This document shows positions 16,419-46,842 of a DNA stretch of 64,000 nt, piece by piece. The translations under genes and the position numbers were made by a program. Under the pieces are notes generated by a model. That model saw only the letters and a list, made by a program, of their open reading frames with translations. It searched no databases and was not told the origin of the DNA. Source of the DNA: a virus. The DNA is taken from positions 1 through 64,000 of IMG/VR virus record IMGVR_UViG_3300025401_000022; one strand, 5' to 3'. Numbering within the stretch: position 1 is the first letter of the stretch; each line of letters begins with the position of its first letter.

Positions 16419-16419
16419 A

Positions 16420-19419: not shown

Positions 19420-19478
19420 CCGTGCCACCCTTTGGCACCTGTATCCTGCCACTATCCTGCCACTTTTTAAAATCGGGC

Positions 19479-19544
19479 CATAGAGGCGTTTAAAATGACT
19501 GGGTAAGGGGGTAGCCTCACATAGCCCTAAAAAACGCCTCTATG
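19479..19544. repeat. 13-bp inverted repeat
   Basis: CATAGAGGCGTTT (19479-91) / AAACGCCTCTATG (19532-44). Confidence 0.8.
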
Positions 19545-19547
19545 AGG

Positions 19548-21786: not shown

Positions 21787-21815
21787 TTTAATTCTCCTTT
21801 GTGTGTTTTCTAAAA

Positions 21816-22082
21816 TTATACCACGACTGATTCGTGCATTGTTTTGTTGATCTCGCGTATCAGGCTTGCGTCCTCAAACCACATAACGCGTGCGTACGTC
21901 CTGCGTGTTGGCTTGCGCGGTGTGCTTTCAGGCGCGTCGCCTGTGTGCACGAACAACGCGAAGGCGTAGCACGCCAGCTTGTCAGTCGCGCACTTGGTTG
22001 CGTGCACGCACCCGTCGCACGGCATTGGCTCATTTAAAAACTTTCTCATTTTAAAGTTCATAGTATTACTCCTGATTATCAA
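21816..22082 (-). CDS. Four-Cys (CxxC-x5-C-x6-C) putative metal-binding protein
   Basis: PCDGCVHATKCATDKLAC; true start probably the internal MNFK. Confidence 0.5.
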   Translation of the reverse strand: MIIRSNTMNFKMRKFLNEPMPCDGCVHATKCATDKLACYAFALFVHTGDAPESTPRKPTRRTYARVMWFEDASLIREINKTMHESVVV

Positions 22083-22260
22083 GTTGTTCTAGGTCTTCCT
22101 GCCACCATGCCATCACGGTGCATATATCGCTCCACTCTGCGTCGTACTGGGGATCTTGACCCTCAGGTATGCAGTCCTCGCGATACGCCTCTAGGGCACG
22201 CCAAATCGCGCCAAATTGGCTGTCTCTGTCATTACTGGTTACTGGTTTAAATGTCGCCAT
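22066..22260 (-). CDS. Hypothetical early protein
   Basis: AGGAG RBS; acidic. Confidence 0.55.
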   Translation of the reverse strand: MATFKPVTSNDRDSQFGAIWRALEAYREDCIPEGQDPQYDAEWSDICTVMAWWQEDLEQLDNQE

Positions 22261-22447
22261 CTTGATCTCCTGTGTCCCAATTGCTTACTGCCACAAATAC
22301 CTGCTGGATGTCGCACTTTGGAAACTTCTCACGCGCGATACTTACAGCCTCATGCGCGTCCTGCGCCCAAAATTGATGCCAGTCATAGTGGCGTGGCTCT
22401 TCGTGTGTTGCCAGTTCAATTGCAAATACTTTAGTCTCGTAGCTCAT
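22247..22447 (-). CDS. Hypothetical early protein (MSYETK...)
   Basis: GAGGAG RBS before ATG at 22447. Confidence 0.5.
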   Translation of the reverse strand: MSYETKVFAIELATHEEPRHYDWHQFWAQDAHEAVSIAREKFPKCDIQQVFVAVSNWDTGDQDGDI

Positions 22448-22451
22448 GGTG

Positions 22452-22604
22452 TTACTCCTCATCAAATTCAAAGTTAATAGTTTGCTTGCAGTGCAGGCAC
22501 TGCTCCACATATATGATGCCGTTGTCACTGACCGCCTCAGTCTGAGCCCCATCGTATGGGCAGGTGAACGGAGCGTCAGCGTCCGCGATAAACACGTCAA
22601 TCAT
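22452..22604 (-). CDS. Small zinc-ribbon-like protein (CPYD...CLHC, 50 aa)
   Basis: Translated by hand; ATGA overlap with the upstream ORF. Confidence 0.45.
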   Translation of the reverse strand: MIDVFIADADAPFTCPYDGAQTEAVSDNGIIYVEQCLHCKQTINFEFDEE

Positions 22605-22879
22605 TTTGGTCCTTTCTTGCTTTCTCTGAGCACGCGTAGATCTTCGCGATACTGCTCCTTGTTCTCTTCGTACTGGCGACGTGTCATCTCTACGCCACGC
22701 TCACCACTGATTGTAGTCGGATCGGGTCGGCACACTAAAATCATGTCGTCAGGTGACTCGACTGGTACCTCGTACACTGGCTCCCATGGCACGTCAGGTG
22801 CGCTGGGTTGTTTGGACCAAGTCCGTGACACGTAGCGTGCCTCGTCACGTGCCCTACAAATTGCGTTAAGTGATCTCAT
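22601..22879 (-). CDS. Hypothetical early protein
   Basis: GGAGG RBS. Confidence 0.5.
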   Translation of the reverse strand: MRSLNAICRARDEARYVSRTWSKQPSAPDVPWEPVYEVPVESPDDMILVCRPDPTTISGERGVEMTRRQYEENKEQYREDLRVLRESKKGPK

Positions 22880-22880
22880 G

Positions 22881-23132
22881 TTAAGCCTCCCATACAGTTA
22901 GCTGGGCAGGGTTCTGCCATTCAGCGAATAAATTATACTTGCGCAGTGTCTCAGTAATCACTGGTGACACGCCGAACTCCCAGTCAGGGATCATGTGCCC
23001 GTCATAGTAGTCACAGAAGTCGTGACCGTCCTCAGCACTAATCCAAAAATTAGGCTGGTCGTCGTGGTACTCACGTACCGCTACGCCTTGTTTTTTGAGC
23101 GCGTTGAACGCGTTGCGAAAAGCTCTTTTCAT
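22881..23132 (-). CDS. Hypothetical early protein
   Basis: GGAGG RBS; coupled. Confidence 0.55.
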   Translation of the reverse strand: MKRAFRNAFNALKKQGVAVREYHDDQPNFWISAEDGHDFCDYYDGHMIPDWEFGVSPVITETLRKYNLFAEWQNPAQLTVWEA

Positions 23133-23356
23133 ACTGCCTCCTGTTTCAGAAATAAATTATATAAACCATCTTTGACCTGAGCCAAAGTGTTGCGTACTAC
23201 ATTGGCTGAGCTCGAGAGCTCGACAGCCAACTCACTATCACCACGCGCATTGGCGCAGTCTGCGAGCTCAGTGAGCTCTTTAATATGCGCTCTGAGCGCA
23301 TTTTCCATCAACAACGCTTGGCGTTGTGTCAGGAATATATCAAAACCTTTTACCAT
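23129..23356 (-). CDS. Hypothetical early protein
   Basis: AGGAGG RBS. Confidence 0.5.
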   Translation of the reverse strand: MVKGFDIFLTQRQALLMENALRAHIKELTELADCANARGDSELAVELSSSANVVRNTLAQVKDGLYNLFLKQEAV

Positions 23357-23364
23357 ACATCCTC

Positions 23365-23667
23365 CTATTTGATATGAATAAATTTAAAGTGGTCTTTAAT
23401 AAACTTATTAGTATGCGCAATAGCCTGCTTGCGGATCTCGTTGAGCTCCTTGGCGATGTTGTCACCGCTCAGCTCCTTGATCCAGCCACGACCGTACCAC
23501 TGCTCGTGGTTAGGGTGGTAGTCCAGCTCGATGCAGTTCTCACCCCACGTGATGCAGAACGACTTGCCACCCTGCTTTAGGTACTCAGCAAGCGTGCGCA
23601 TGATGACTGCACGTGATGGCTTGCGCTTGTTGAACTCGATGTCAATTACTGGGAATAGTTGGCTCAT
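23365..23667 (-). CDS. Hypothetical early protein
   Basis: GGAG RBS. Confidence 0.55.
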   Translation of the reverse strand: MSQLFPVIDIEFNKRKPSRAVIMRTLAEYLKQGGKSFCITWGENCIELDYHPNHEQWYGRGWIKELSGDNIAKELNEIRKQAIAHTNKFIKDHFKFIHIK

Positions 23668-23712
23668 AAAATCTCCGTTGTGTTGATGTGTCTATTATAC
23701 TGGGTCACTGGC

Positions 23713-24108
23713 TCACTGAGTGAGCTCGTATGGTTTATCCCAGTCGCCTACGTTCAGGTGAAAGTAGTACGCGGTGTCAAAGTAGTCCACCTGCGCGTCC
23801 GACTTGTCATAGTAGTCCGCGCTCTTAAGCGCGTCAATGATCTCACCGATCACGCGCTGAGGGCGGTGTGTGAAGTGATCTTCGTACCAGTACGGGTTCA
23901 CTTGGATGTGGTTGCGTACGTGCAAGTCAAAGTCTTTGCCAGTGGTCTGCTTGAAGTTCTCCATGAAGTCCACTGGGCCACTGCGTAGGGTGCAGGTGAT
24001 GCTCATGTGATCCTGCACGCGCAGGCTGTACTTGATGCCCAGTGGTTTGAGCACCTTGTCTAGGTTAGCCTTGATGATCTTCTTCTTGTCTTGGTTCATG
24101 TATGCCAT
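23713..24108 (-). CDS. Early protein with LPD29-like motif
   Basis: YYDKSDAQVDYFDTAYY matches the recalled YDNSD.MTDYF polyvalent-protein motif. Confidence 0.55.
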   Translation of the reverse strand: MAYMNQDKKKIIKANLDKVLKPLGIKYSLRVQDHMSITCTLRSGPVDFMENFKQTTGKDFDLHVRNHIQVNPYWYEDHFTHRPQRVIGEIIDALKSADYYDKSDAQVDYFDTAYYFHLNVGDWDKPYELTQ

Positions 24109-24119
24109 GGTGTAGCTCC

Positions 24120-24251
24120 TTATTGGTTATGGTGTAGTTCGTCCATCAGCATGGCCCACTCAATCTCTGCGTCGGTCTGCTCAAGCTCGTCAACGCCGTA
24201 GCGTCTCTCTAGCTCTTCAAGTACTTCGGATAGTGGTAGATCTTTGGTCAT
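24120..24251 (-). CDS. Small acidic early protein (43 aa)
   Basis: Translated by hand; GAGGAG RBS; ATGA overlap. Confidence 0.5.
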   Translation of the reverse strand: MTKDLPLSEVLEELERRYGVDELEQTDAEIEWAMLMDELHHNQ

Positions 24252-24424
24252 GTTAGCTCCTCAAGTTTATGTAGTACATCAGTATAGCCGTCGTTACGTT
24301 GCAGGACGCCGTCCTTGGCGCGTTTAGTAGCTTGGCGTAGGTTGTTGTCAGTGAACTCCCAGTAATGCGTCACAGCCCCGTCTATGGGGTCTGTGTACGT
24401 TGCTCTGTATCGTTTGTTGGTCAT
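24248..24424 (-). CDS. Small early protein (58 aa)
   Basis: Translated by hand; AAGGAGG RBS. Confidence 0.5.
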   Translation of the reverse strand: MTNKRYRATYTDPIDGAVTHYWEFTDNNLRQATKRAKDGVLQRNDGYTDVLHKLEELT

Positions 24425-24433
24425 GTTGCCTCC

Positions 24434-25078
24434 TTATGCGGTTTGTAAAGTGCGCCAAGAGCGCGGTGACATCCAAGATTTTAACACCCTGCCAGTACTC
24501 TCTTGCGTGTAGTTGAACCACAAGCGCTGTCCGTCTTGCTGTACTGCTGTCATCACTAACCCCTTGGCGTTGACGCGCTTGTCACCAGCCTGAATGCGCT
24601 CGGCTGGTACTGGCTTAGCTACTACTGCCAGCTCAGTGCCGTGCACCTTGTCAGCCAGTGCGCTCATCATCTTAGCGAAGTCTTCACCAGCCTTAGCACG
24701 GTACGTCATCAGGTAAGCCTCATGCTTACGAATGTCTTGTTGGCGATACTCAGGCGCATCGGCAAACAATGCCACTTCTGCTACGCGCTTGCCGTCTACC
24801 ATCTTCATGTAGCCAGTCTTGTACTCGACTGGGTCGTGCATGCCTGCCAGTGTCTCTTCTGCCTTGATGCGCAGGTCGTGGGCTTGTTTTAATACATCAG
24901 CGATCATGCTGTCAGTCTCAGTACGACGCTTTTCAAGCGGTGCGTAGCGGTGACCTTGACATACGCCTTGGAACCAGCCGTTAGCTACTGTGTAGCCGTG
25001 AGCTGAGATGCCGCCGCGTACTGCCTGCTGACGTCCACAGCACTGGCAGTGACCGCGTGTTTGAGTTGATGTTGCCAT
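24434..25078 (-). CDS. Early protein with Cys/His N-terminal metal-binding motif
   Basis: GHCQCCGR...HGY...GVC.G; AAGGAG RBS. Confidence 0.65.
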   Translation of the reverse strand: MATSTQTRGHCQCCGRQQAVRGGISAHGYTVANGWFQGVCQGHRYAPLEKRRTETDSMIADVLKQAHDLRIKAEETLAGMHDPVEYKTGYMKMVDGKRVAEVALFADAPEYRQQDIRKHEAYLMTYRAKAGEDFAKMMSALADKVHGTELAVVAKPVPAERIQAGDKRVNAKGLVMTAVQQDGQRLWFNYTQESTGRVLKSWMSPRSWRTLQTA

Positions 25079-25101
25079 GGTGATAGCTCCTTTAGTTAAT
25101 T

Positions 25102-25153
25102 GATCTCATCAGTACCAGCCTAACTGGTAGACAGCCGTGAGGCTGTTTCGATC
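25102..25153 (-). ncRNA. Type II hammerhead ribozyme
   Basis: Minus strand GAUC-GAAA-CAGCC-ucac-GGCUG-UC^-UACCAG-uuagg-CUGGUA-CUGAUGA-GAUC: complete core, three stems, GUC cleavage triplet. Confidence 0.9.
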
Positions 25154-25303
25154 TTAATATCCAGCATCCCACTGGCATCCGTTGTCAATCCATCGTGCCT
25201 CGTCTTTGGCAGTTTGATAGAGCTCATCTTGCCAGTCGTCATAACCTTGGCAATCTTCTGCGTTATCAAACTCTGTACCGTCTTTGGCGATGTATTTAGT
25301 CAT
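25154..25303 (-). CDS. Small acidic early protein (MTKYIAKDGTEF..., 49 aa)
   Basis: Translated by hand; AGGAG RBS; stop abuts the hammerhead. Confidence 0.6.
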   Translation of the reverse strand: MTKYIAKDGTEFDNAEDCQGYDDWQDELYQTAKDEARWIDNGCQWDAGY

Positions 25304-25325
25304 AGTGATTCTCCTATTGATTGGT

Positions 25326-25374
25326 TAGTACTGCCTCGAGAGCACTGCATTGCAATGCGCTCTGAGCACTACTA
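25326..25374 (-). other. Long imperfect hairpin (possible RNase III site)
   Basis: TAGTA...AGAGCACTGC / GCAATGCGCTCT...TACTA arms just upstream of an RBS. Confidence 0.45.
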
Positions 25375-25382
25375 TCTGCCAG

Positions 25383-25617
25383 CTGTTGGGACACCCTACC
25401 CCGCTGGTACTTCTTTAGAGCTCCATCCACTGTCTAGGCGGAGCTCACAGGCACCTATGCACCTGATCTGCCACACGTTTTACAAGGCTGGTACTTAGTC
25501 ACCTTGCACTGGTAACGCCAGTGAGTCGATCGCTCGGCTAGTGGGCTCTTCGCTTAGTTACTGCATGACACGCTGAACTGTGGCACCGCTCCTAATCACC
25601 TGACTGCCTTACAACAG
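25383..25617 (-). ncRNA. Candidate ~235-nt structured leader/ncRNA
   Basis: Starts just after TATAAT (25623-28, minus); closing CUGUUG/CAACAG; stems GAGCUCC/GGAGCUC, CACUGG/CCAGUG, UGCCACA/UGUGGCA, AAGGC/GCCUU. Confidence 0.5.
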
Positions 25618-26263
25618 ACTCCATTATAGTCACAGATATACGCATTTTGATTCCACGATGTGAAATAATTCGGAGTGTGCACTAACATAATTTGGTCACT
25701 GGAAAACGGACAGCTAACCCCCGTGGTTACTGGAATACTAGAGATCTCAGAGAGTTGAGGGGTAAGTATCACCTGATAGCGATCGCGTCTCTATGGCCCG
25801 ATTAGGGGCATTGCTGGGGATTCGCTATCGGGCAATATCGCCACCTCACGTCCACCCACCCTCTCAGGCTCTCGCGTGCGCGTACCACTCAGCCACACCA
25901 CCACACTGCACCACCGCGCCCACTCCACCACCCCACCAGCCTGCCGTCCCTAGCACACTGCCAGCTCAGCGTCAAGCAATACCCATACTGCCAGTGTGGT
26001 TATTAGCTGGGCCAGCACGCTGGGGCCCGCGTCCACTCTGTCCCCATTACTAGCAGTCAGGGTGGGTGAGTGCCAGCGTGGGGCGCGAGGGGCTGTTCCA
26101 CATTGTGAGATGGCGTTCCGCATTGTGGTGGCCCTCCTTTGTGGCGCAGGGTCCCCTTTTTGCCAAGTCGACACCCCGTGAGCAGGTACCCAGGGGGCCG
26201 GGCGGAGGCCCCAGGTCAAAGCTCAAGTTTGTATAATTTTTTATTATTTTTTGTTATATAGAC

Positions 26264-37959: not shown

Positions 37960-38586
37960 ATGCCTGTCTACCTTGACACCCGTGGTAACTCTGTCCTATC
38001 TGTAGCGGTCTGTGACCGCTGCAATAGGAAGTTTGCCTATACAGAGCTTATGCCCGACCCCAACTTTCCGGGGATGCGGGTGTGTAAGGACGACCTAGAT
38101 AACTTTGACCCATGGCGATTACCAGCACTTCAGACCGAAAACATTGCATTACGTTTTCCGCGCCCAGACGTGGATATTGCTACAGGTCCAATTGGTGGCA
38201 ATCAAATTATGACCGAAAATGGTTTCCAAAATGATAACTCTATTTTCATTGAGGGAACTAACGGCACATACGCAAATGGTACTGGCGATTTAAACAAGAA
38301 CAGCAACGTTGTTCCTTCGCCTTCAGTACTCAATCCCTATGTCTACACAGTGTCACCAAATACAGGTTCCCGTACAGGCGGAACTTTTGTGGTCATCACT
38401 GGAGCTAATTTTACAGATGTTAACACCGTACGTTTTGGCGGTGTGGTGGCATCATTCGAGTTAATCAACTCCACACAAATCAATGCGTTTACGCCAGCTT
38501 ACCCAGTAACCGGTTTGGTAGACGTTTCAGTAATATCCCCTTTTGGCACAGGCACCTCGCATGGTGCGTTTACCTATACTACATAA
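37960..38586 (+). CDS. CxxC-domain plus IPT/TIG (Ig-like) domain protein
   Basis: CDRC...VC N-terminus; VSPNTG...GGT.V.ITG.NF....V.FG IPT signature. Confidence 0.65.
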   Translation: MPVYLDTRGNSVLSVAVCDRCNRKFAYTELMPDPNFPGMRVCKDDLDNFDPWRLPALQTENIALRFPRPDVDIATGPIGGNQIMTENGFQNDNSIFIEGTNGTYANGTGDLNKNSNVVPSPSVLNPYVYTVSPNTGSRTGGTFVVITGANFTDVNTVRFGGVVASFELINSTQINAFTPAYPVTGLVDVSVISPFGTGTSHGAFTYTT

Positions 38587-38589: not shown

Positions 38590-41500
38590 ATGGCCGATCA
38601 GTCGATAACCCAGCTACCCATCGCCACCGCGCTAACCGGTGATGAGCAGGTACCTGTCGTACAACGTGGTGTAACAAAACAGGCGTCTGTTTCACAGATC
38701 GCCAACGCTGCCTCGCCCGGCAAATTAATTACTAATATTATTTACAACCCAACAAACGGTGACCTCGTTATTTATTACAGCGATGGTTCAACTGAGGTTG
38801 TTGGTCCGGTCTCTGGCTCATCTGGTTATAGTGGTTTGTCAGGATACAGTGGTATTTCTGGCTATAGTGGTATTTCTGGCTATAGTGGCATTTCTGGCTA
38901 TAGCGGTAAATCTGGCTTTAGTGGTATTTCAGGTTTTAGTGGCTACTCTGGCAGCGGAGTGTCAGGCTATAGCGGAAGCGGTATATCTGGATATAGTGGC
39001 TATTCTGGTATATCTGGATATAGCGGTATCAGCGGATATAGTAGTTTTTCTGGATATAGCGGTGTCAGCGGATATAGTGGGTATTCTGGTATATCTGGTT
39101 TGTCCGGAATAAGTGGATACAGTGGCACATCTGGTTGGTCCGGAATAAGTGGCTACAGTGGTACATCTGGTTGGTCTGGTACTTCTGGTTATAGCGGGTA
39201 TAGTGGATATAGCGGCATATCTGGCTGGTCAGGAATTTCTGGTTATAGCGGCTATAGCGGCACATCTGGTTGGTCTGGTTTTAGCGGTTTTAGCGGCTAT
39301 AGTGGCATATCTGGACAGCAGGGTACCTCAATTAATATTAAAGGTACTGTTGCCACACCAGCAGATTTACCCCCTACAGGTAACCAAGTAAATGACGCAT
39401 ATATTGTTAGCTCTAATGGTGACTTATATGTTTGGTCTGGAACCTCTTGGAACAACGTAGGAGAGATTGTAGGACCACCAGGAACCTCGGGGTACTCCGG
39501 GTATTCTGGTATTGGAACGTCTGGTTATAGTGGCTATTCTGGCTATTCTGGCGTATCTGGCTGGTCTGGTATTTCAGGCTGGTCTGGATATAGTGGTTAT
39601 AGTGGTGCGTCAGGTATATCTGGGTACAGTGGTACATCTGGCTATTCTGGTACCTCTGGCTACTCTGGTACATCTGGTTACTCTGGCTATTCTGGTACGT
39701 CTGGATATAGCGGTACATCTGGCTATTCTGGCTATTCTGGCGTATCTGGCTGGTCTGGTATTTCAGGCTGGTCTGGATATAGTGGTTATAGTGGTGCGTC
39801 AGGTATATCTGGGTATAGTAGTTTTTCTGGCTATAGCGGCATATCTGGCTATAGTGGGGCAATTGGCCCTAGTGGTTATTCTGGTGTATCTGGCTACTCT
39901 GGTATCTCCGGTTATTCTGGTGTCTCCGGTTACTCAGGCTACTCTGGTTATTCTGGCATCCAAGCACCTATTGGTGGCACTAACACACAGATTCAGTACA
40001 ACAATGCTGGTGTATTAGGCGGTGTTCCATTGCTAACCTACAACGGCACAACACTAGCCATGACTGGCTCAACAATCGACAGCGCCACCATTGGTGGAAC
40101 TACCCCAGCCGCTGGTACATTTACTACTTTAGGCTCAACTAGTACAGCTTCATTAGGCACAGCTTCAACTACTTATGTTCAAGTTATTGGTGATGCTTCT
40201 TATCCCGGCATTTACGCTACTGGCGGTACAAATACTCCATTAGTTTTACAACCTTTAGGAACAGGCGCATTACAAGCACAAAAGACTACTTCATCAGCAA
40301 CAGGCGGTAACGCTAGGGGTGCTAATGCGGTTGATTGGCAGACTTTAAGAAATATAGCGGCACAAGTAGCAGCACAAACTTCATCTGTAATTGCTGGAGG
40401 CCAAAATAATGGTGTGAATGGCTCATCGGGAACTGTTTCTGGCGGCTCTGGTAATCAAGTTAGCGGAGCATTTTCAACCATCGCTGGCGGATATTCAAAT
40501 TCACTATATGGACAAACTTCTGTTATTGTTGGTGGACATTTAAATGGCACAACTACTCAAACTGGTTTTTTAAACTTTATTGGTGGTGGTGAATTAAATA
40601 CAGGTACATTGATTGCCGCAGTAACCACTCAAGCTACTTCTACAATTACAAGTGGCTCTACAGCAGTAACATTAAGCGCAACAAATGCCGCAATTAAAGT
40701 AGGTCAATTAGTAACTGGTACACCAATTCAATCTGGTACTGGTTCTTTACCTTATACTTATGTTGCAGCTATTTCAGGCACATCATTAACATTAAGCCAA
40801 AATGCTACATCTTCAACCAACGCTACTTTGTCTTTTTACACTCCTCATGGTGTAGTAGTCGGTGGTGGTAATAACCAAGCAACAGGAGCATATAGCTTTA
40901 TCGGTGGCGGTGGTGATGCTGGTACAGCGGCTAATCGAAATGTGGCAAGTGGTGATTATGCTACTGTAGTTGGTGGTAAAGCAAACCAAGCAACAGGTGA
41001 GTCAGCGTTTGTTGGTGGCGGTGGAAGCATTTCTGGAACAGTTTATATTAATACAGCGAGTGGTGCGGCTTCTTCTATTGTTGGAGGATTACAAAATACC
41101 GCAAATCAAATTGGTGCTTTTGTTGGTGGTGGATTTAATAATCTAGCAAATGGCGTATACTCATCCATAATGGGTGGTACTTATGGTTCTGCTAGAAGTA
41201 TTGTAGGAAATATGGTTTTCCCAGCTACTCGACAACCTTTCGGAGCTGGCGCATCAGCAGTTGCACAATCTGCTTTACTAGTTCTTGGTCGTCAAACCAC
41301 AGATGCAACAGCCACAGTTCTTTGTTCAGACTCTAATGCCGCATCAGGAACAAACCAAGTAATCCTACCCAACAACTCTGCTTATTACTTTAAAGTCAGA
41401 GTTATTGCTGGTGTAACTGGCGCAGGAAACACAAAGGCTTGGACACTAGAAGGTGCTATTAAGCGTGGTGCTGGTGTAGGTACAACTGCTATAGTCGGTA

Positions 41501-41664
41501 CAGTAACAACGACTGTAGTAGCGGCAGATGTAGGCGCAGCAACTTGGACAGTAACCGCCACAGCAGATACAACTAATGGTGGATTAGCAATAACAGTAAC
41601 AGGACAGGCTTCTACAACAATTCGTTGGGTTGCCAAAGCCGAAACCGCAGAGATGACATTCTAA
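38590..41664 (+). CDS. Long fibre with Gly-X-Ser collagen-like repeats and beta-solenoid C-terminus
   Basis: Two long (SGY/SGI/SGF/SGW/SGT)n tracts interrupted by a GTV.T...LP..G....DAY.V...G.LYVW.G..W domain; GGG.N repeats. Confidence 0.8.
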   Translation: MADQSITQLPIATALTGDEQVPVVQRGVTKQASVSQIANAASPGKLITNIIYNPTNGDLVIYYSDGSTEVVGPVSGSSGYSGLSGYSGISGYSGISGYSGISGYSGKSGFSGISGFSGYSGSGVSGYSGSGISGYSGYSGISGYSGISGYSSFSGYSGVSGYSGYSGISGLSGISGYSGTSGWSGISGYSGTSGWSGTSGYSGYSGYSGISGWSGISGYSGYSGTSGWSGFSGFSGYSGISGQQGTSINIKGTVATPADLPPTGNQVNDAYIVSSNGDLYVWSGTSWNNVGEIVGPPGTSGYSGYSGIGTSGYSGYSGYSGVSGWSGISGWSGYSGYSGASGISGYSGTSGYSGTSGYSGTSGYSGYSGTSGYSGTSGYSGYSGVSGWSGISGWSGYSGYSGASGISGYSSFSGYSGISGYSGAIGPSGYSGVSGYSGISGYSGVSGYSGYSGYSGIQAPIGGTNTQIQYNNAGVLGGVPLLTYNGTTLAMTGSTIDSATIGGTTPAAGTFTTLGSTSTASLGTASTTYVQVIGDASYPGIYATGGTNTPLVLQPLGTGALQAQKTTSSATGGNARGANAVDWQTLRNIAAQVAAQTSSVIAGGQNNGVNGSSGTVSGGSGNQVSGAFSTIAGGYSNSLYGQTSVIVGGHLNGTTTQTGFLNFIGGGELNTGTLIAAVTTQATSTITSGSTAVTLSATNAAIKVGQLVTGTPIQSGTGSLPYTYVAAISGTSLTLSQNATSSTNATLSFYTPHGVVVGGGNNQATGAYSFIGGGGDAGTAANRNVASGDYATVVGGKANQATGESAFVGGGGSISGTVYINTASGAASSIVGGLQNTANQIGAFVGGGFNNLANGVYSSIMGGTYGSARSIVGNMVFPATRQPFGAGASAVAQSALLVLGRQTTDATATVLCSDSNAASGTNQVILPNNSAYYFKVRVIAGVTGAGNTKAWTLEGAIKRGAGVGTTAIVGTVTTTVVAADVGAATWTVTATADTTNGGLAITVTGQASTTIRWVAKAETAEMTF

Positions 41665-41676
41665 AAAGGAAAAATC

Positions 41677-41943
41677 ATGGCATTACGTTTATCCGTTTCA
41701 ACACAATTTGGCGTACCAGCACCAGAAGCCTACGCCCGCATCACTAACTTCTACGGCACTAAAGACCAATTACAAGTCCAAGTAGCTATTTACTACAACG
41801 AAGATGCAAGACATCAAAATATGAGTACAGTTAAAGAAAATGCTCACTACATTGCTATGGAAGATTTAAAGGGCGATTTAATTCCAGCAATTTATGAAGT
41901 ATTAAAGAGTTTTGCTGATTATCAAGGCGCAGTAGACGCTTAA
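41677..41943 (+). CDS. Tail-associated protein (homologue of 134..400)
   Basis: Direct alignment with 134..400. Confidence 0.75.
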   Translation: MALRLSVSTQFGVPAPEAYARITNFYGTKDQLQVQVAIYYNEDARHQNMSTVKENAHYIAMEDLKGDLIPAIYEVLKSFADYQGAVDA

Positions 41944-41947
41944 TTTA

Positions 41948-41977
41948 GGACAGTTTTTAACTTTTTTGCGTATTAGT
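41948..41977 (+). promoter_or_regulatory. GGACA-N15-GCGTATTAGT variant element
   Basis: Upstream of the glycosyltransferase cluster; TATAAT also present near 42015. Confidence 0.65.
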
Positions 41978-42050
41978 GGTAGTAGATTAAGGTTTTTTTT
42001 TTGCATAAGTAGTATTATAATAGAGGTTCGTATGAACCTAATAGGAAACC

Positions 42051-43268
42051 ATGAAATACAGCATAGTAATACCCACATATAACAACTGTGAGAAGTACCT
42101 AAAGCCGTGCATTGACTCAATTATTAAGCACACCGACATGGCCCAAGTAGAGCTGATTATCAGCGCCAACGGGTGTACAGACAACACCAGAGCCTATTTA
42201 GACTACTTAGAGACCGCAGTACCGAACCTGTACGTGGTGTGGAACCAAGAGCCACTGGGGTTTGCCAAGGCTACAAACAAGGGCATCCGTGTGGCTAGGG
42301 GCGACAAGATTGTCCTGCTAAATAACGACACAGTCGTGCTAGATAGTAGCTGGTTAGAGCGCCTAGATCAGGGCGACATTGGGGCGGTACTGACGCAGCA
42401 CTCAGACATCACCCGCAGCCGTTTTGGCGTGTTCTTCTGCGTGATGATCGACCCGAAGGTGTTTCAGACCATTGGCTTTTTGAACGAAGATTATGCCACT
42501 GGGGGCTGTGAGGACATTGAGTTTTGCCATAAGGCACAGCTGAGTGGCTTTAATGTTGTGGACGTTGGATACAGGGGAGACTTCCCAATCTACCACGCAG
42601 CAGAGGGCACGATGCACGACCCGCAGCTGGTACAGGACTGGGACAACACGTTCCTACTTAACCAGCTCAAGCTGGCAAAGGAGTACAACCTAGACTGGTA
42701 CCGCTGGCGTCTGTCAAACAACTACGAGCGGGCTGTGTTCCTCAAGGACGATCTGGTTTTTCCCCGTGAAAAGCAAAGATACGAATTTGCAGGGAAAAAC
42801 ATACTGCCAGGCTCTGTGCTCGAGATTGGCTGCTCTACTGGATACGGCTACCAGTTTTTAAACACGCAGGCCTATATGGGGCTGGACTACGACCCCATTA
42901 TTGTAAACGTAGCCAAGGAACAAGAGTGGTCTGATAACGCCACGTTTTACCAAGCCGACATCAACGCCTATGATCTTGGTACGTACACCAACATCATTGC
43001 GTTTGAGGTAGTTGAGCACCTTGACAACGGCTTAGAGGTTGTTGAAAAGCTAAAGCAGCACTGCAAGCGCCTACTAATTACGGTGCCACATAACGAGCCA
43101 AAGGGCTTTTGGGGCGAGCACCACAAGTTGCATGGTTTAACAGAAAAAGATTTTCCTGGATTTACGTTTGCGTACATCAGCCACGACGGAACAATTTCGG
43201 ACAGAATGCAGGCAGTAAACGCCGCCAATCCGAGCAACCTGATGATTTGCAGGTGGGACAATGAGTAG
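42051..43268 (+). CDS. GT2 glycosyltransferase fused to class I SAM methyltransferase
   Basis: SIVIPTYN, LLNNDT, EDIEFC; VLEIGCSTGYG, AFEVVEHL. Confidence 0.85.
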   Translation: MKYSIVIPTYNNCEKYLKPCIDSIIKHTDMAQVELIISANGCTDNTRAYLDYLETAVPNLYVVWNQEPLGFAKATNKGIRVARGDKIVLLNNDTVVLDSSWLERLDQGDIGAVLTQHSDITRSRFGVFFCVMIDPKVFQTIGFLNEDYATGGCEDIEFCHKAQLSGFNVVDVGYRGDFPIYHAAEGTMHDPQLVQDWDNTFLLNQLKLAKEYNLDWYRWRLSNNYERAVFLKDDLVFPREKQRYEFAGKNILPGSVLEIGCSTGYGYQFLNTQAYMGLDYDPIIVNVAKEQEWSDNATFYQADINAYDLGTYTNIIAFEVVEHLDNGLEVVEKLKQHCKRLLITVPHNEPKGFWGEHHKLHGLTEKDFPGFTFAYISHDGTISDRMQAVNAANPSNLMICRWDNE

Positions 43269-44229
43269 TATCCTGTGCTCTGTAGCGACCCGTGGCAGGT
43301 ACCACACCACGCTGCCTCTCGTACTAAACGCCATCATCAACCAGACCAGGCTGCCAGATAAGCTAGTCATCTTCGATGATAATGATAAGCCGCAGGACAT
43401 GCGGAAAGAGATGATTTACCAATATTTCTTTGAGATGCTAAAGCACAAAGGTATTGAGTGGGAATGGCGATATGCAACCCGTAGGGGTCAGCATCATATT
43501 CATCAAAGCGCTAACAACGAAGGTTTTGAATGGGTGTGGCGCGTTGATGATGACGCGGTGCCAGAACCTAATGTACTAAAAGAATTGTATAGATTTACTT
43601 CCCCCATTGTTGGAGCAGTTGGCGGTCAAGTGTTAACTCCACCGTATTCGCCAGATACAAATAACATAACTGGCAAAATTGATAACATTGACTCCGAACC
43701 AAATGTGCAATGGGGTAAGTTTAATATAGCAAGAGAAGTTGAACACTTACACTGTACTTTTTTATATCGTGCTGGGGTTGTTGATTATAATCTTGGTCTT
43801 TCACGGGTAGCACATAGGGAAGAAACTTTATTTACCTATGGTCTACATAAAAAAGGCTATATACTTTGGGCAATACCAAACGCAGTAACTTGGCACATGA
43901 AGAATCCTCAAGGTGGGATTCGTAGCGAAACAAAGAAGGAGATGTATGACCATGATGAACAGATTTTTAGAAATATTCTTGGACACCGTGATCGTACCAT
44001 TGTGGTTCTCAATTGTGGTCTCGGTGACCATATTGTATTCAGCCGCATACTTCCTTCAATACCTAACGCTGAAGTTTTTAGCTGTTACCCTGAAGTGGTT
44101 CCCGGGAAGTCAATAGCTCAGGCAATACAGTTATTTGGTGACATTGACCATTGGAACGTCTACAAAAAGATGGATCAGTGGAAATGGAAAGATAGTTTAG
44201 AAGCTGCGTATAGAAAGATGTATTTATGA
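43261..44229 (+). CDS. GT-A (GT2-like) glycosyltransferase with C-terminal GT9-like N-half
   Basis: NQT..PD...IFDD, RVDDD, HREET; C-terminal CGLGDHIV. Confidence 0.7.
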   Translation: MSSILCSVATRGRYHTTLPLVLNAIINQTRLPDKLVIFDDNDKPQDMRKEMIYQYFFEMLKHKGIEWEWRYATRRGQHHIHQSANNEGFEWVWRVDDDAVPEPNVLKELYRFTSPIVGAVGGQVLTPPYSPDTNNITGKIDNIDSEPNVQWGKFNIAREVEHLHCTFLYRAGVVDYNLGLSRVAHREETLFTYGLHKKGYILWAIPNAVTWHMKNPQGGIRSETKKEMYDHDEQIFRNILGHRDRTIVVLNCGLGDHIVFSRILPSIPNAEVFSCYPEVVPGKSIAQAIQLFGDIDHWNVYKKMDQWKWKDSLEAAYRKMYL

Positions 44230-44660
44230 TCATCATATCGCCATACGCACAAAAGCTCAGAACCGGAGCTTTAAACCCAAAAAACTATCCGTATTGGAAA
44301 GAGCTCATTGAGCAAATCAACGAGCCAATAGTTCAGATTGGAGTTGAGGGTGAAGAGCAATTAGTACCAGACTTTAGAAAGAACCTACCAATTGCATCAT
44401 TGCGTGAACTGTTATGGCAGTGCCGCACTTGGATTGGAATTGATAGTTTCTTTCAACATCTTGCATGGGATGAGGGTGTGCCAGGAATAGTGTTATGGGG
44501 TCCGTCTGATCCACTAATATTTGGGCATCCAGAAAACATTAATCTACTAAAAGACCGATCACATTTAGTAGCAAACCAGTTTATATGGTGGGAAGCCACC
44601 GAACATAGTAATGATCGCTTTGTAAAACCACAAGAAATATTAGAGTATCTAAAGGAATAA
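44226..44660 (+). CDS. GT9 (heptosyltransferase-like) C-terminal half
   Basis: KNYPYW, IGIDSFFQHLA....PGIVLWGPS.P..FG. Confidence 0.7.
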   Translation: MIIISPYAQKLRTGALNPKNYPYWKELIEQINEPIVQIGVEGEEQLVPDFRKNLPIASLRELLWQCRTWIGIDSFFQHLAWDEGVPGIVLWGPSDPLIFGHPENINLLKDRSHLVANQFIWWEATEHSNDRFVKPQEILEYLKE

Positions 44661-44663
44661 ACC

Positions 44664-46181
44664 ATGGCCCAATCCGGCTACACACCGATTAGTCTTTACT
44701 ACAGCGCAACGTCTGGCGTAGCGCCGACGTCTGGCAATCTTACCAATGGTGAGTTGGCTATTAACATCACCGACGGTAAGTTATACTTTAAAAATACTAG
44801 CGGCGCTGTAACTTTATTGGCTTCTGCCTCTGGTGCTGCAGCTGCGGGTAACCTATCCGGCGGTACATCAGGCCAGATTCCGTACCAAAGTGCGCCGAAC
44901 ACCACTGTGTTTATGCCTGCACCAGGGACATCCGGTACTTACCTTGGCTACAATGGTAGTGGTTTTTATTGGTCTACAACAACTGGCGCTTCCGGATACA
45001 GTGGCTACAGTGGCTTTTCCGGCACAAACGGCATAAATGGTACTTCTGGATTTAGTGGTATTTCAGGATATTCTGGCTTTAACGGCTCTGGTGTTTCTGG
45101 TTATAGCGGCTCCGGTATTTCAGGTTTTAGTGGATACTCTGGCATATCTGGCTATAGCGGCTATAGCGGCTCAAACGGTTTATCAGGATTTTCTGGCTTT
45201 AGTGGCTACAGCGGTTCCGGTATATCTGGCTACAGTGGTTTTAACGGCGCAACAGGTCCAACAGGCAACTCCGGTTACAGCGGCTACTCTGGCTACAGTG
45301 GCCAAGATGGTATTTCAGGAACAAACGGTCTATCTGGCTACAGTGGTCGTAGTGGTTTTTCTGGCTACAGCGGTTCTGGTATCTCAGGATATAGTGGATA
45401 CAGCGGTTTAGGTTTGTCTGGTTATAGTGGTTACTCTGGAGCTACTGCAGCTTCTGGTTATAGTGGCTACAGTGGCACTAATGGCGCGTCTGGTATTTCT
45501 GGCTATAGTGGCGCTAATGGTGCGTCTGGTATTTCTGGCTATAGTGGCACTAACGGTACTTCTGGTATTTCTGGCTATAGTGGATTTAGCGGATATTCCG
45601 GTTCTACAGCATATACCGCAACCAACTTATCCGGTGGTTATGTGAATGCAACAAGCATTACATATTCCACTACTCTTACTGGTGGTACTGGTATTGTTAA
45701 CTTAGGTTCTGGTCAGTTTTACAAAGATTCTAGCGGCAACGTATCTATTGGTTCTACATCAACACCTGCAACACTATATGTAAAAGGTGGTAATTCAAAC
45801 AACCTATCTATTGACAATGGTGGTCAGCAATATACCACAGTGTCTTTATACAACAACGGCACTGAAAAAGCGCAGATGTATTGGGACCAAACTAATACAC
45901 TATTTGTATTTGGTACTGACGCTGGTGCTCCTGTAGTATTTAAAGCCGCTACCGTTGAACGTATGCGCATTTCTGCAGCTGGTGGTGTATCAATTGGTAC
46001 AGCAACAGATCCGGGCGTTGGTAATTTATTGGTTAACGGCGCATATAAAACAGTTAACTTTTCTATTTTTGAGTCCGGTGGTAAGCTATATTTTGCCTAC
46101 CAAGGAAATAATATAGCTTCATTAGATTCATCAGGTAACTTTACATCATTAGCTTCAGTAATTGGTGGCGGCACACCTTAA
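44664..46181 (+). CDS. Second fibre with Gly-X-Ser collagen-like repeats
   Basis: P....L..GELAIN..DGKLYFK head domain; SGYSG tract ~44990-45600; ERMRI...G.V.IG fibre motif. Confidence 0.8.
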   Translation: MAQSGYTPISLYYSATSGVAPTSGNLTNGELAINITDGKLYFKNTSGAVTLLASASGAAAAGNLSGGTSGQIPYQSAPNTTVFMPAPGTSGTYLGYNGSGFYWSTTTGASGYSGYSGFSGTNGINGTSGFSGISGYSGFNGSGVSGYSGSGISGFSGYSGISGYSGYSGSNGLSGFSGFSGYSGSGISGYSGFNGATGPTGNSGYSGYSGYSGQDGISGTNGLSGYSGRSGFSGYSGSGISGYSGYSGLGLSGYSGYSGATAASGYSGYSGTNGASGISGYSGANGASGISGYSGTNGTSGISGYSGFSGYSGSTAYTATNLSGGYVNATSITYSTTLTGGTGIVNLGSGQFYKDSSGNVSIGSTSTPATLYVKGGNSNNLSIDNGGQQYTTVSLYNNGTEKAQMYWDQTNTLFVFGTDAGAPVVFKAATVERMRISAAGGVSIGTATDPGVGNLLVNGAYKTVNFSIFESGGKLYFAYQGNNIASLDSSGNFTSLASVIGGGTP

Positions 46182-46197: not shown

Positions 46198-46842
46198 ATG
46201 GCAAATACAACAATTAACAGTTCTGGAGTAACCTTTCCAGACGGAACAACTCAAAGCACTTCTGGCGCACCTTTTATTAAAGGTCAAGTTTTTACATCCA
46301 ATGGAACATTTACTATTCCTACTGGAGTTACTGCACTTAAAATTACAGTAGTTGGTGGCGGCGGGGGTAGTGGCGGGGGTGCTAGCACTCCAGGAGGAGG
46401 TGGAGGGGGCGGCGGTGCTGCTGTTGCTTATTTAACTGGTTTAACATCAGGTAATACTTTAGCAGTAACTATTGGTGGCGGTGGCTCTGCTGGTGGAAAT
46501 GGTAATAATGGTAGTGGTGGCGGAAGTTCAACTGTTGCTTCAGGAACACAATCTATTACAACATTAACTGGTAGTGGTGGCGGTGGTGGCGGTGGTTCTA
46601 ATTCTATTGGGGTTGGCGGTGGTGGCGGAAGTGGAACTAATGGAACAATAAATGTTGGTGGGGGCGGTGGCAGTTGGAGTGGTGGAAATTCTATATTAGG
46701 TGGTGGTGGTGCATGGGGTGTTAATAATGCAAATGGAAATTCAGGCAAGGCTTATGGCGGTGGCGGTGGTGGTGGTGGTGTTTCTGGATGTGGCAGTAGT
46801 GGTGCGGCTGGTGCTGCTGGTGTTGTAGTGTTTGAATGGTAA
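46198..46842 (+). CDS. Glycine-rich tail/adhesin-like protein
   Basis: FTSNGTFT.P.GV......VGGGGG...G.VV.EW. Confidence 0.7.
   Translation: MANTTINSSGVTFPDGTTQSTSGAPFIKGQVFTSNGTFTIPTGVTALKITVVGGGGGSGGGASTPGGGGGGGGAAVAYLTGLTSGNTLAVTIGGGGSAGGNGNNGSGGGSSTVASGTQSITTLTGSGGGGGGGSNSIGVGGGGGSGTNGTINVGGGGGSWSGGNSILGGGGAWGVNNANGNSGKAYGGGGGGGGVSGCGSSGAAGAAGVVVFEW

What the first reader, a model, noticed from the sequence alone, without database searches (positions are those of the whole stretch)
38590..46181. Candidate virion O-glycosylation system: Gly-X-Ser collagen-like fibres flanking a glycosyltransferase cluster
Seen: two fibre genes carry long strict triplet tracts with Gly at every third position and Ser almost always before it (SGY/SGI/SGF/SGW), instead of the usual GP-x collagen. 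Between them lie a GT2-methyltransferase fusion, a second GT-A enzyme and a GT9-like piece, preceded by a copy of the phage promoter-like motif. Known: Ser-rich adhesins are O-glycosylated by dedicated neighbouring GTs (SRRP GtfA/B; TibC/Aah heptosyltransferases on autotransporters), and phage-encoded virion glycosylation is reported in actinobacteriophages. Inference: the many regularly spaced serines are acceptors, giving a glycan-coated, possibly methyl-capped fibre. The glycan could stabilise a proline-free triple helix or shield the virion.
Basis: partly seen in the sequence, partly recalled or inferred. Interest (0 to 1): 0.85.

Follow-up and report, generated by a model that had tools for sequence, protein, structure and literature searches.

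The report
Phage serine-collagen fibres with glycosyltransferase cassette
An uncultured freshwater phage encodes two proline-free Gly-X-Ser collagen-like tail fibres flanking a phage-only set of sugar- and methyl-transferases, and because this enzyme set travels with such serine fibres in many phages, the phage probably sugar-coats its own fibres, though no chemistry has been done.

Summary
Fibre 1 (38590-41664) has 107 Gly-X-Y triplets, 101 with Ser at Y. Fibre 2 (44664-46181) has 58 triplets, 42 with Ser. Pro and charged residues are almost absent. Between the fibres lie a GT2+SAM-methyltransferase fusion, a GT-A enzyme whose C-terminus is the N-lobe of a GT9-type fold, and a separate ORF that is the GT9 C-lobe. 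Natural fused homologues fold as GT-A plus a compact GT9 fold (pLDDT 93; Z about 15.5 to WaaF, TibC and 3TOV).

All the enzymes are soluble. They sit behind a late promoter-like motif found nine times in the window. The GT-A/GT9 pair is essentially phage-only.

In 37 of 38 evaluable sequence clusters it lies beside a Gly-X-Ser fibre. It also does so in the cultured siphophage P19250A and in a 39%-identical relative. Of 17 Gly-X-Ser fibres found independently, 13 have it adjacent and one more has it elsewhere on its contig. None of 27 Gly-X-Thr fibres has it. One Gly-X-Ser fibre carries a non-orthologous GT8-GT9 plus GT2-GT2-MTase set.

Best reading (about 0.6): late, cytoplasmic O-glycosylation of the fibre serines. 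It is not a TibC/Aah family member. No chemistry exists. This scan reached the same reading before on other phage DNA.

The parts
37960..38586 (+). IPT/TIG-domain protein, the conserved gene immediately upstream of fibre 1 (probable tail or fibre-anchoring component)
   Evidence: Pfam TIG E=7.9e-12. A homologue precedes the Gly-X-Ser fibre in most related loci. Its N-terminal 76 aa are 59% identical to a Caulobacter phage RW protein.
38590..41664 (+). Fibre 1 (1024 aa). It has an N-terminal anchor (1-75) and Gly-X-Ser collagen tracts at residues 76-247 (nt 38815-39330) and 295-458 (nt 39472-39963). A small knob domain (248-294) splits the tracts. The distal domain of about 550 aa is Gly/Ala/Thr-rich.
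   Evidence: PHROG tail-fibre families. The knob domain is shared with collagen-like fibres in 378 GenBank phage records.
41677..41943 (+). Small 88-aa protein, possibly a fibre-1-specific assembly factor
   Evidence: phrog_18037 E=3e-7. It is found only after fibres with the same C-terminal domain type (L010, L047, L048).
41968..41977 (+). Late promoter-like motif GCGTATTAGT upstream of the enzyme cassette
   Evidence: 9 copies in the window against 0.11 expected, all intergenic and co-oriented with the downstream genes.
42051..43268 (+). GT2 (GT-A) glycosyltransferase (residues 1 to about 222) fused to a class I SAM methyltransferase (about 225-405)
   Evidence: Pfam. AlphaFold2 model pLDDT 90.1. 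Structural matches: GalNAc-T1 Z 18.9 over residues 1-222; RebM Z 16.0 over residues 225-405. Invariant D44, NND93 and ED155, plus the SAM-binding loop around G260-G266.
43261..44229 (+). GT-A glycosyltransferase (residues 1 to about 245) fused to the reduced N-lobe of a GT9-type GT-B fold (about 247-322, GLGD motif)
   Evidence: Pfam GT2 25.1 bits. Invariant DDD and near-invariant G-x-G-D. Model of the natural fusion P0002.
44226..44660 (+). C-lobe of the split GT9-like enzyme, coupled to the preceding ORF by an ATGA overlap
   Evidence: PF01075 E=1.4e-4. 3TOV E=0.026 across the D-S-x-x-x-H-L motif. 46% identical to the C-terminal part of the natural fusion P0002. That part folds as GT9.
44664..46181 (+). 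Fibre 2 (505 aa): conserved N-terminus (1-105), Gly-X-Ser/Asn collagen tracts at residues 108-315 (nt 44985-45608), distal domain
   Evidence: A homologue of its N-terminal domain follows the cassette in nearly all of the 80 close loci whose flank reaches that far.
46198..46842 (+). Glycine-rich domain protein (tail-fibre associated)
   Evidence: Pfam Gly_rich_2 E=9.7e-12; phrog_863 tail fiber assembly E=1.9e-20.

Best explanation
This is a phage-encoded protein O-glycosylation system for tail fibres.

Shown:
- Two fibres carry long proline-free, uncharged Gly-X-Ser collagen-type tracts.
- A cassette of soluble enzymes lies between them, behind a late promoter-like motif.
- The invariant core of the cassette is a GT-A enzyme carrying the N-lobe of a GT9-type fold, plus a separate GT9 C-lobe. 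A GT2 domain and a SAM methyltransferase are optional accessories.

Inferred:
- Late in infection, in the cytoplasm, the two-part GT9-like enzyme puts the first sugar on the exposed Y-position serines of the nascent or assembled fibres. The donor is possibly ADP-heptose from the host LPS pool.
- The GT-A and GT2 domains extend the glycan.
- The methyltransferase O-methylates the terminal sugar.
- The result is a fibre shaft coated with short glycans. The coat may stabilise a triple helix that lacks both proline and charge pairs, and may shield it from proteases.

Which enzyme initiates, which sugars are used and what the glycan does are all unproven.
For: Anatomy.

Enzyme features:
- No hydrophobic 19-mer above 1.44 on the Kyte-Doolittle scale, so the enzymes are soluble.
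- Late promoter motif 74 nt upstream.
- Catalytic motifs are invariant or near-invariant across relatives of 28-60% identity: DDD, G-x-G-D, K-x-[WY]-P and D-S-x-x-x-H-L.
- Natural single-chain fusions of the two ORFs exist. P0002 and P0060 pass the PF01075 cut-off. The P0002 model (pLDDT 93.4) is a GT-A domain plus a GT9 fold: 3TOV Z 15.9, WaaF Z 15.5, TibC Z 15.5, WaaC Z 14.5.

Linkage to Gly-X-Ser fibres:
- 133 loci carry the GT-A/GT9 pair, forming 58 clusters at 95% identity. Of the 38 evaluable clusters, 37 have a Gly-X-Ser tract. None has a Gly-X-Thr fibre.
- The cassette also follows a 1201-aa Gly-X-Ser fibre in the cultured siphophage P19250A, whose capsid is unrelated.
- A 39%-identical relative (L210) lies between two Gly-X-Ser fibres.

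Reverse test:
- 13 of 17 pattern-sampled Gly-X-Ser fibres have the pair adjacent, against 0 of 27 Gly-X-Thr fibres. Fisher p = 4.6e-8, not corrected for phylogeny.
- One apparent exception (L118) has the pair elsewhere on its contig.
- Another (L143) has a non-orthologous GT8-GT9 fusion plus GT2-GT2-MTase.

Contrasts:
- Phage RW, the closest cultured relative by capsid, has neither a Gly-X-Ser fibre nor the cassette in the stretch examined, 27.5 kb around its capsid gene.
- Fibres with the same knob domain but charged GDK-type collagen have no annotated glycosyltransferase nearby.

Phage-only family: only 9 hits in 185,579 species genomes, all MAG contigs of inconsistent taxonomy. The nearest ESM Atlas clusters are 85-100% viral.

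Precedents:
- SgtA, encoded next to bclA3, adds O-GlcNAc to Y-position Thr (and Ser) of a collagen-like protein (PMC7157674).
- TibC heptosylates Ser of TibA (PMC4358343).
- PBCV-1 A064R is a GT-GT-MTase that builds and methyl-caps a virion glycan (PMC9614988).
Against: - No glycan, mass shift or glycopeptide has been observed in any of these phages.
- GT9 and GT2 are classically LPS and polysaccharide enzymes, and soluble LPS-core transferases look similar.
- The GT9 C-lobe ORF alone is just below the Pfam cut-off (21.8 against 22 bits).
- Two Gly-X-Ser fibres (L192, L123) have no such enzymes on their contigs, which are incomplete (about 20%).
- Distant homologues of the pair (L209, L211, L212) have no collagen-like gene in the available flanks.
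- Many of the loci are related phages, so the counts are not independent.
- Gene linkage could partly reflect co-transfer within a recombining fibre module.
Confidence: 0.6

Rival explanations
1. The cassette modifies the host envelope (LPS core, O-antigen or another surface glycan). The purpose would be to block superinfection or to stop progeny adsorbing to cell debris. On this view its position among fibre genes reflects only the mosaic 'host-recognition' region.
For: GT9 enzymes are LPS heptosyltransferases and GT2 enzymes build polysaccharides. Glycosyltransferases in the tail-fibre regions of pelagimyophages have been interpreted this way (PMC7029224). The phage has no sugar-nucleotide synthesis genes, so it draws on host envelope precursors.
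Against: - The cassette sits behind the late structural promoter motif, too late for useful envelope remodelling.
- There is no membrane segment, flippase or Gtr-like partner.
- Linkage is strict to Gly-X-Ser fibres and absent from Gly-X-Thr fibres, which an envelope role does not predict.
- The cassette moves with the fibre type across phages with different capsids, and presumably different hosts.
- The family is absent from cellular genomes.
Confidence: 0.15
2. The enzymes glycosylate another phage product rather than the Gly-X-Ser tracts. Candidates are the capsid, another tail protein or the distal fibre domains, as in mycobacteriophages where capsid and tail-tube C-termini are the targets.
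For: Virion glycosylation on capsid and tail tube is the only documented phage case (Freeman et al. 2023, cited in PMC12619734). The distal fibre domains are also Ser/Thr-rich.
Against: The cassette co-occurs with the Gly-X-Ser tract, not with a capsid lineage: P19250A is absent from the capsid hits. The distal fibre domains next to the cassette are highly variable, at 22-89% identity.
Confidence: 0.1
3. The GT-like proteins are non-catalytic fibre chaperones or assembly scaffolds, or the linkage is a hitch-hiking moron with no functional tie to the fibres.
For: The neighbourhood holds candidate fibre accessory proteins (phrog_863, annotated tail fiber assembly, and the small phrog_18037 protein). 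Much of the co-occurrence comes from related phages.
Against: - Catalytic DxD, G-x-G-D, nucleotide-sugar and SAM motifs are invariant over a family of more than 700 clusters at 50% identity.
- The enzymes are 74-85% conserved inside a hypervariable region.
- A non-orthologous cassette with the same activities lies next to a Gly-X-Ser fibre in L143.
Confidence: 0.05

Closest known systems
SgtA-BclA3 of Clostridioides difficile (and BclA of Bacillus exosporium)
   Same: A glycosyltransferase gene lies directly next to a collagen-like fibre gene. The enzyme O-glycosylates the hydroxy-amino acid at the Y position of Gly-X-Y repeats and also accepts Ser in place of Thr (PMC7157674).
   Different: Those repeats are Gly-Pro-Thr on a bacterial spore surface. 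Here the repeats are proline-free Gly-(Tyr/Ile/Phe/Trp)-Ser on phage fibres, and the enzymes are a GT-A/GT9 pair plus GT2-MTase. Homology of the window's GT-A domains to SgtA was not tested.
Bacterial autotransporter heptosyltransferases TibC/Aah with TibA/AIDA-I (BAHT)
   Same: A soluble GT9-like GT-B catalytic fold, with a reduced N-lobe, hyper-glycosylates serines of a repetitive fibre or adhesin in the cytoplasm, using ADP-heptose from the LPS pool (PMC4358343). The model matches TibC at Z 15.5 over 230 residues.
   Different: No hit to the BAHT model TIGR04414. No four-Cys iron finger: there is one Cys in the C-lobe ORF. The N-terminal beta-barrel is replaced by a GT-A domain. The enzyme is split into two ORFs. 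The match to TibC is tied with those to the LPS heptosyltransferases WaaF and WaaC.
Chlorovirus PBCV-1 A064R (GT-GT-methyltransferase) and other giant-virus glycan machinery
   Same: Virus-encoded, soluble, multi-domain enzymes join glycosyltransferase and SAM methyltransferase domains. They build and methyl-cap a glycan on a virion protein (PMC9614988).
   Different: A064R acts on N-glycans of the capsid protein of a eukaryotic virus. No sequence relationship was shown here.
Mycobacteriophage virion glycosylation (Che8, Corndog and others; Freeman et al. 2023)
   Same: Phage-encoded glycosyltransferases decorate the phage's own virion proteins.
   Different: The targets there are the C-termini of capsid and tail-tube subunits in actinobacteriophages. 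Here the inferred target is a collagen-like fibre shaft, in phages whose only cultured relative carrying the cassette infects a Gram-negative methylotroph. That paper was not available to read.
Mimivirus L230 with collagen-like protein L71
   Same: A virus-encoded enzyme glycosylates a viral collagen-like protein (PMC9614988).
   Different: L230 hydroxylates Lys and glucosylates hydroxylysine, as in animal collagen. The tracts here have almost no Lys (one in the 165 triplets of the two fibres), and Ser is the candidate acceptor.

Membership tests
Collagen triple-helix repeat (PF01391) | Gly at every third residue over long runs; Pfam score above the cut-off | tested here: met
   Runs of up to 33 triplets; 124.1 and 85.8 bits against a cut-off of 27.2.
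Collagen triple-helix repeat (PF01391) | Known stabilisers of the helix: Pro/Hyp, or charged residue pairs as in bacterial collagens | tested here: not met
   3 Pro and 1 charged residue in the 107 triplets of fibre 1. By contrast, GDK/GPQ-type tracts flank the same knob domain in Vequintavirinae fibres.
Collagen triple-helix repeat (PF01391) | Forms a trimeric triple helix | not testable with these tools
   Only monomer prediction is available. It needs circular dichroism or trimer modelling.
Glycosyltransferase family 2 / GT-A | Pfam score above the cut-off, GT-A fold, acidic metal and donor motifs | tested here: met
   42051-43268: 72.9 bits; invariant D44, NND93, ED155; Z 18.9 to GalNAc-T1. 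43261-44229: 25.1 bits; invariant DDD; residues 1-255 of the homologue model match SpsA at Z 16.8.
Glycosyltransferase family 9 (PF01075) | Pfam score above the gathering cut-off | tested here: inconclusive
   The window's C-lobe ORF scores 21.8 against 22 bits. The natural fusions P0002 (23.7) and P0060 (22.9) pass.
Glycosyltransferase family 9 (PF01075) | Two-lobed GT-B fold like the solved GT9 enzymes, with an N-lobe G-x-G-D loop, K-x-[WY]-P and D-S-x-x-x-H-L donor motifs | tested here: met
   Residues 256-510 of the P0002 model match 3TOV at Z 15.9 (226 aligned, rmsd 3.8), WaaF at 15.5 and WaaC at 14.5. The motifs are seen. The N-lobe is only about 80 aa.
Glycosyltransferase family 9 (PF01075) | Single polypeptide; ADP-heptose donor | tested here: not met
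   The enzyme is split into two ORFs with an ATGA overlap in the window, in P19250A and in all close loci. Donor specificity cannot be tested with these tools.
BAHT (TibC/Aah; TIGR04414) | Match to the family model | tested here: not met
   No TIGR04414 hit at E<=0.01 for either ORF or for the fusion P0002. The only NCBIfam heptosyltransferase hit is heptosyltransferase I at E=0.0025.
BAHT (TibC/Aah; TIGR04414) | Four-Cys iron finger, N-terminal beta-barrel, beta-hairpin thumb (PMC4358343) | tested here: not met
   One Cys in the C-lobe ORF. The N-terminus is a GT-A domain.
BAHT (TibC/Aah; TIGR04414) | Catalytic-domain fold and a catalytic Asp in the N-lobe loop | tested here: met
   TibC 4RAP matches at Z 15.5 with 230 residues aligned, tied with the LPS enzymes. 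The Asp of G-x-G-D is near-invariant.
Class I SAM-dependent methyltransferase | Pfam score above the cut-off, Gly-rich SAM loop, Rossmann-like fold | tested here: met
   Methyltransf_23 scores 36.9 against 27 bits. G260, C261, G264 and G266 are invariant. RebM matches at Z 16.0 over residues 225-405. The substrate (sugar or protein) is not testable.
Dedicated fibre O-glycosylation system (works like SgtA-BclA3 or TibC-TibA) | Glycan found on the fibre and dependent on the neighbouring enzymes | not testable with these tools
   Only comparative linkage is available.

The most novel reading that the evidence does not exclude
A phage-only heteromeric GT-A/GT9 enzyme processively O-glycosylates every Y-position serine of proline-free, uncharged collagen-like tail fibres, perhaps with heptose. 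Optional GT2 and methyltransferase modules then extend and methyl-cap the glycan. This would give a 'glyco-collagen' whose triple helix depends on the glycan. It would be a third way of stabilising collagen, and the first fibre-glycosylation system in phages of Gram-negative hosts. It would be widespread in freshwater viromes.
Probability: 0.35. Interest if true: 0.8.

Novelty: new variant of a known kind. Interest (0 to 1): 0.65.

Why it matters
If true, many environmental phages chemically dress their host-recognition fibres with their own enzymes. That would affect fibre stability, protease resistance, adsorption and antigenicity. It would also change how glycosyltransferases in phage 'host-recognition' regions are annotated, since they are now usually called LPS-modifying or DNA-modifying genes. 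It would add a proline-free, glycan-dependent collagen design of interest for biomaterials. It would define a new split GT-A/GT9 enzyme architecture. One cultured phage, P19250A on Methylophilaceae IMCC19250, carries the whole system, so the idea can be tested directly.

Tried and rejected
- Megablast of the region against GenBank phages found nothing.
- Sequence searches of the PDB with the GT-A/GT9 proteins gave nothing useful: and only 3TOV at E=0.026.
- Foldseek on the fusion model was filled by GT-A hits. The GT9 fold appeared only with the wide VIA search.
- BAHT membership was tested and rejected.
- My first promoter guess, a 21-mer with TATAAT, is unique in the window. The recurrent motif is the 10-mer GCGTATTAGT. 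The sigma-70 consensus scan gave fewer sites than shuffles.
- In alignment A1 the short C-lobe row was misaligned, so it was left out of the HMM and of the fold alignment.
- My DNA pattern for Gly-Tyr-Ser also caught Gly-Tyr-Thr. This turned into a useful control.
- No sugar-nucleotide genes (Epimerase, NTP_transferase) are in the phage genome.
- A query with a distant family member (P0024) returned only the 65%-identity clade, not truly distant loci.
- The Freeman et al. 2023 paper is not held.

Full report

The window is part of an 80,308-bp IMG/VR virus record that CheckV rates complete. Its major capsid protein is 66% identical to that of Caulobacter phages RW and GB2A. It is about 40% identical to those of HTVC023P-type phages.

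- Fibre 1 (38590-41664, 1024 aa) has six runs with Gly at every third residue, 107 triplets in all. The Y position is Ser in 101 of them. The X position is mostly Tyr (47), Ile (21), Thr (11) and Trp (8). The runs hold three Pro and one charged residue.
- Fibre 2 (44664-46181, 505 aa) has 58 triplets, with Ser at Y in 42 and Asn in 9.
- Both fibres score far above the Pfam Collagen cut-off and match PHROG tail-fibre families.

A 47-residue knob domain splits the collagen region of fibre 1. The same domain occurs in collagen-like fibres of 378 GenBank phage records. In the Vequintavirinae examples it is flanked by ordinary charged GDK/GPQ-type collagen. The Gly-X-Ser tracts therefore occupy the structural place of a bona fide collagen shaft, but lack both known stabilisers (Pro/Hyp and charge pairs).

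THE ENZYMES

Gene 42051-43268 is a GT2 domain fused to a class I SAM methyltransferase.
- Its AlphaFold2 model has pLDDT 90.1.
- The GT-A half matches GalNAc-T1 at Z 18.9. The methyltransferase half matches RebM at Z 16.0.
- Both matches are tied with many other chains, so they give the fold but not the specificity.

Gene 43261-44229 is a second GT-A enzyme with an invariant DDD motif. Its last 75 residues or so begin with the G-x-G-D loop typical of the N-lobe of GT9 enzymes.

Gene 44226-44660 overlaps it by ATGA. It carries the GT9 C-lobe motifs K-x-[WY]-P and D-S-x-x-x-H-L.

A search of 1.84 billion representative proteins found 722 clusters related to the GT-A protein.
- Some are natural single-chain fusions of the two ORFs. 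P0002 is 60% identical to the first ORF and 46% to the second, and it passes the PF01075 cut-off.
- The P0002 model (pLDDT 93.4) is a GT-A domain (1-255) plus a compact two-lobed GT9 fold (256-510). The GT9 part matches 3TOV at Z 15.9, WaaF at 15.5, TibC at 15.5 and WaaC at 14.5.
- Other relatives are giant polypeptides of up to 2846 aa. Those scanned, of up to 1824 aa, string this unit together with GT2, GT17, TOD1-like and FkbM- or other-type methyltransferase domains. This argues that the methyltransferase works on the same glycan assembly line.

None of the cassette proteins has a membrane-spanning segment. The phage has no other GT2 and no sugar-nucleotide genes, so donors must come from host pools.

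EXPRESSION CLASS

The 10-mer GCGTATTAGT occurs nine times in the window against 0.11 expected. Every copy is intergenic and co-oriented with the gene downstream. Copies lie ahead of the large gene at 29335, the gene after the capsid terminator, and the genes at 48349, 48937 and 55344. One copy lies 74 nt upstream of the GT2-MTase gene. The cassette therefore belongs to the same regulatory class as these genes of the structural region.

COMPARATIVE TEST, FROM ENZYME TO FIBRE

The GT-A protein has 203 relatives in IMG/VR. The best 80 are 74-85% identical to it. The loci whose flanks reach far enough show the order TIG protein, Gly-X-Ser fibre, GT2 with or without MTase, GT-A/GT9-N, GT9-C, second fibre. 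In a few, a further fibre gene lies between the Gly-X-Ser fibre and the enzymes.

Variants define a core and accessories.
- Some loci have GT2 without the methyltransferase (L004, L057, L059, L080).
- Some have the methyltransferase without GT2 (the P19250A lineage).
- Some have neither (L092, L100, L133, L182).
- The GT-A/GT9 pair is always present.

Over all 133 loci fetched with the pair, there are 58 clusters at 95% identity. Of the 38 clusters with at least 4 kb of upstream flank, 37 have a Gly-X-Ser tract, and none has a Gly-X-Thr fibre.

The only GenBank phage among 50,697 records with the pair is Methylophilaceae phage P19250A. It is a siphophage with a lambda-J-like protein and an unrelated capsid. 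There the cassette directly follows a 1201-aa Gly-X-Ser fibre that is mis-annotated as a tape measure protein.

A 39%-identical relative on a 47.5-kb contig (L210) lies between two Gly-X-Ser fibres, in a different gene order.

More distant homologues (L209, L211, L212) show no collagen-like gene in the available flanks. The link is therefore not absolute at long range.

COMPARATIVE TEST, FROM FIBRE TO ENZYME

A DNA pattern for four Gly-Tyr-(Ser/Thr) triplets pulled 120 IMG/VR loci, chosen without regard to enzymes. Both Gly-X-Ser and the more numerous Gly-X-Thr fibres were found, the latter also in giant-virus bins.

- Of 17 Gly-X-Ser fibres with at least 1.6 kb of downstream sequence, 13 have the pair adjacent.
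- Of 27 Gly-X-Thr fibres, none does. Fisher p = 4.6e-8, not corrected for relatedness.

The four exceptions were examined.
- L118 has the pair elsewhere on its 21-kb contig.
- L143 has a non-orthologous set. This is a GT8-GT9 fusion (PF01075 E=7e-13) and a GT2-GT2-methyltransferase fusion, downstream of the fibre.
- L192 and L123 have none, but sit on fragments about 20% complete.

The L143 case matters most, because the same combination of activities has been assembled from different genes beside the same kind of fibre.

Two further contrasts fit.
- Phage RW, the closest cultured relative by capsid, has a homologue of the TIG protein's N-terminus. In the stretch examined (27.5 kb around its capsid gene) it has neither a Gly-X-Ser fibre nor the cassette.
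- The family is essentially confined to phages. There are nine hits in one genome each of 185,579 species. All are MAG contigs assigned to unrelated taxa, including archaea, which points to mis-binned phage DNA. The nearest ESM Atlas clusters are 85-100% viral.

MECHANISM

Shown: the anatomy, the soluble nature of the enzymes, conserved catalytic motifs, the late promoter motif, and a specific genomic association with Gly-X-Ser fibres.

Inferred: the enzymes act in the cytoplasm late in infection on the fibre serines. In a collagen helix these occupy the exposed Y position.

I think the GT9-like enzyme most likely initiates, for two reasons.
- It is the element common to the orthologous and the non-orthologous cassettes.
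- Its fold class contains the one known family that hyper-glycosylates serines of repetitive fibres (TibC/Aah).

The GT-A and GT2 domains would then extend the glycan and the methyltransferase would cap it, as in PBCV-1 A064R. An equally documented alternative is initiation by a GT-A enzyme, as with SgtA on BclA3. Donor sugars, glycan structure and biological role (helix stability, protease shielding, adsorption) are open.

RIVALS

- Host envelope modification is the usual annotation for such genes (PMC7029224) and cannot be excluded. It does not explain the Ser-versus-Thr specificity, the late promoter, the absence of membrane partners, or the transfer with the fibre type across phage backbones.
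- Glycosylation of another virion protein does not fit the lack of linkage to a capsid lineage.
- A non-catalytic role does not fit the invariant catalytic motifs.

COMPARISON WITH KNOWN SYSTEMS

The system works most like SgtA-BclA3 (PMC7157674) and TibC-TibA (PMC4358343). It resembles virus-encoded virion glycan machinery: A064R and L230 in PMC9614988, and the mycobacteriophages of Freeman et al. 2023, which I know only through PMC12619734.

It is not a BAHT member. There is no TIGR04414 hit, no iron finger and no beta-barrel. It is GT9-like in fold and motifs, but it is split and has a half-size N-lobe.

I found no paper describing this cassette or proposing fibre glycosylation for it.

EARLIER NOTES FROM THIS SCAN

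Earlier follow-ups in this scan reached the same reading on other phage DNA. One (e1-5948360) describes the same MTase/GT2 fusion plus split GT9-like enzyme travelling with serine-type but not threonine-type fibres. I treated these notes as leads and repeated the key tests here.

LIMITS

- Counts rest on related metagenomic contigs of uneven length.
- Structure comparisons used a 60%-identical natural fusion, not the window's two-chain enzyme.
- No experiment exists.

Noticed in passing
L085-L203 (IMG/VR loci): Gly-Tyr-Thr collagen-like proteins are even more common than Gly-Tyr-Ser ones in viral contigs. They include giant-virus bins (GVMAG) and phages over 100 kb, with tracts of up to about 1350 residues. 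None has the GT-A/GT9 pair nearby. Whether they have other glycosyltransferases was not examined.
   Followed up: partly
window 19137-19146(-), 26540, 29276, 32495, 36427, 41968, 48311, 48880, 55308 (+): The 10-mer GCGTATTAGT occurs 9 times against 0.11 expected. Every copy is intergenic and co-oriented with the downstream gene. It is probably the promoter of a phage-specific transcription class.
   Followed up: partly
L001 (KX815270.1, Methylophilaceae phage P19250A) 8357-11962 and 5012-7789: The 1201-aa Gly-X-Ser collagen-like fibre is annotated as 'tail length tape-measure protein'. A Gly-rich 925-aa protein is annotated as 'PE family protein'. Both look like mis-annotations. The three genes after the fibre (methyltransferase, GT-A/GT9-N, GT9-C) are annotated as hypothetical.
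   Followed up: yes
L143:3351-9457 (-): A non-orthologous cassette lies next to a Gly-X-Ser fibre. It comprises a GT8-GT9 fusion (537 aa), a 603-aa RCC1-repeat protein and a GT2-GT2-methyltransferase fusion (639 aa).
   Followed up: partly
L204-L212 (genome contigs): Phage contigs carrying the cassette are binned into MAGs of Mucilaginibacter, Nitrosotalea, Saccharibacteria, Nitrososphaeria, Patescibacteria, Aenigmatarchaeota and Gallionella. This is most likely binning contamination rather than host information.
   Followed up: no
L225:1568-3136, L227:2661-4250, L103:439-1998: In some relatives the methyltransferase and the GT-A/GT9-N protein form a single ORF of 523-530 aa. In L103 the same two parts are broken across two frames, by a frameshift or a sequencing error.
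   Followed up: no
window 14000-26000: A minus-strand block has clearly higher G+C (0.50-0.53, against 0.40-0.46 elsewhere). It probably marks the early region. It was not studied here.
   Followed up: no
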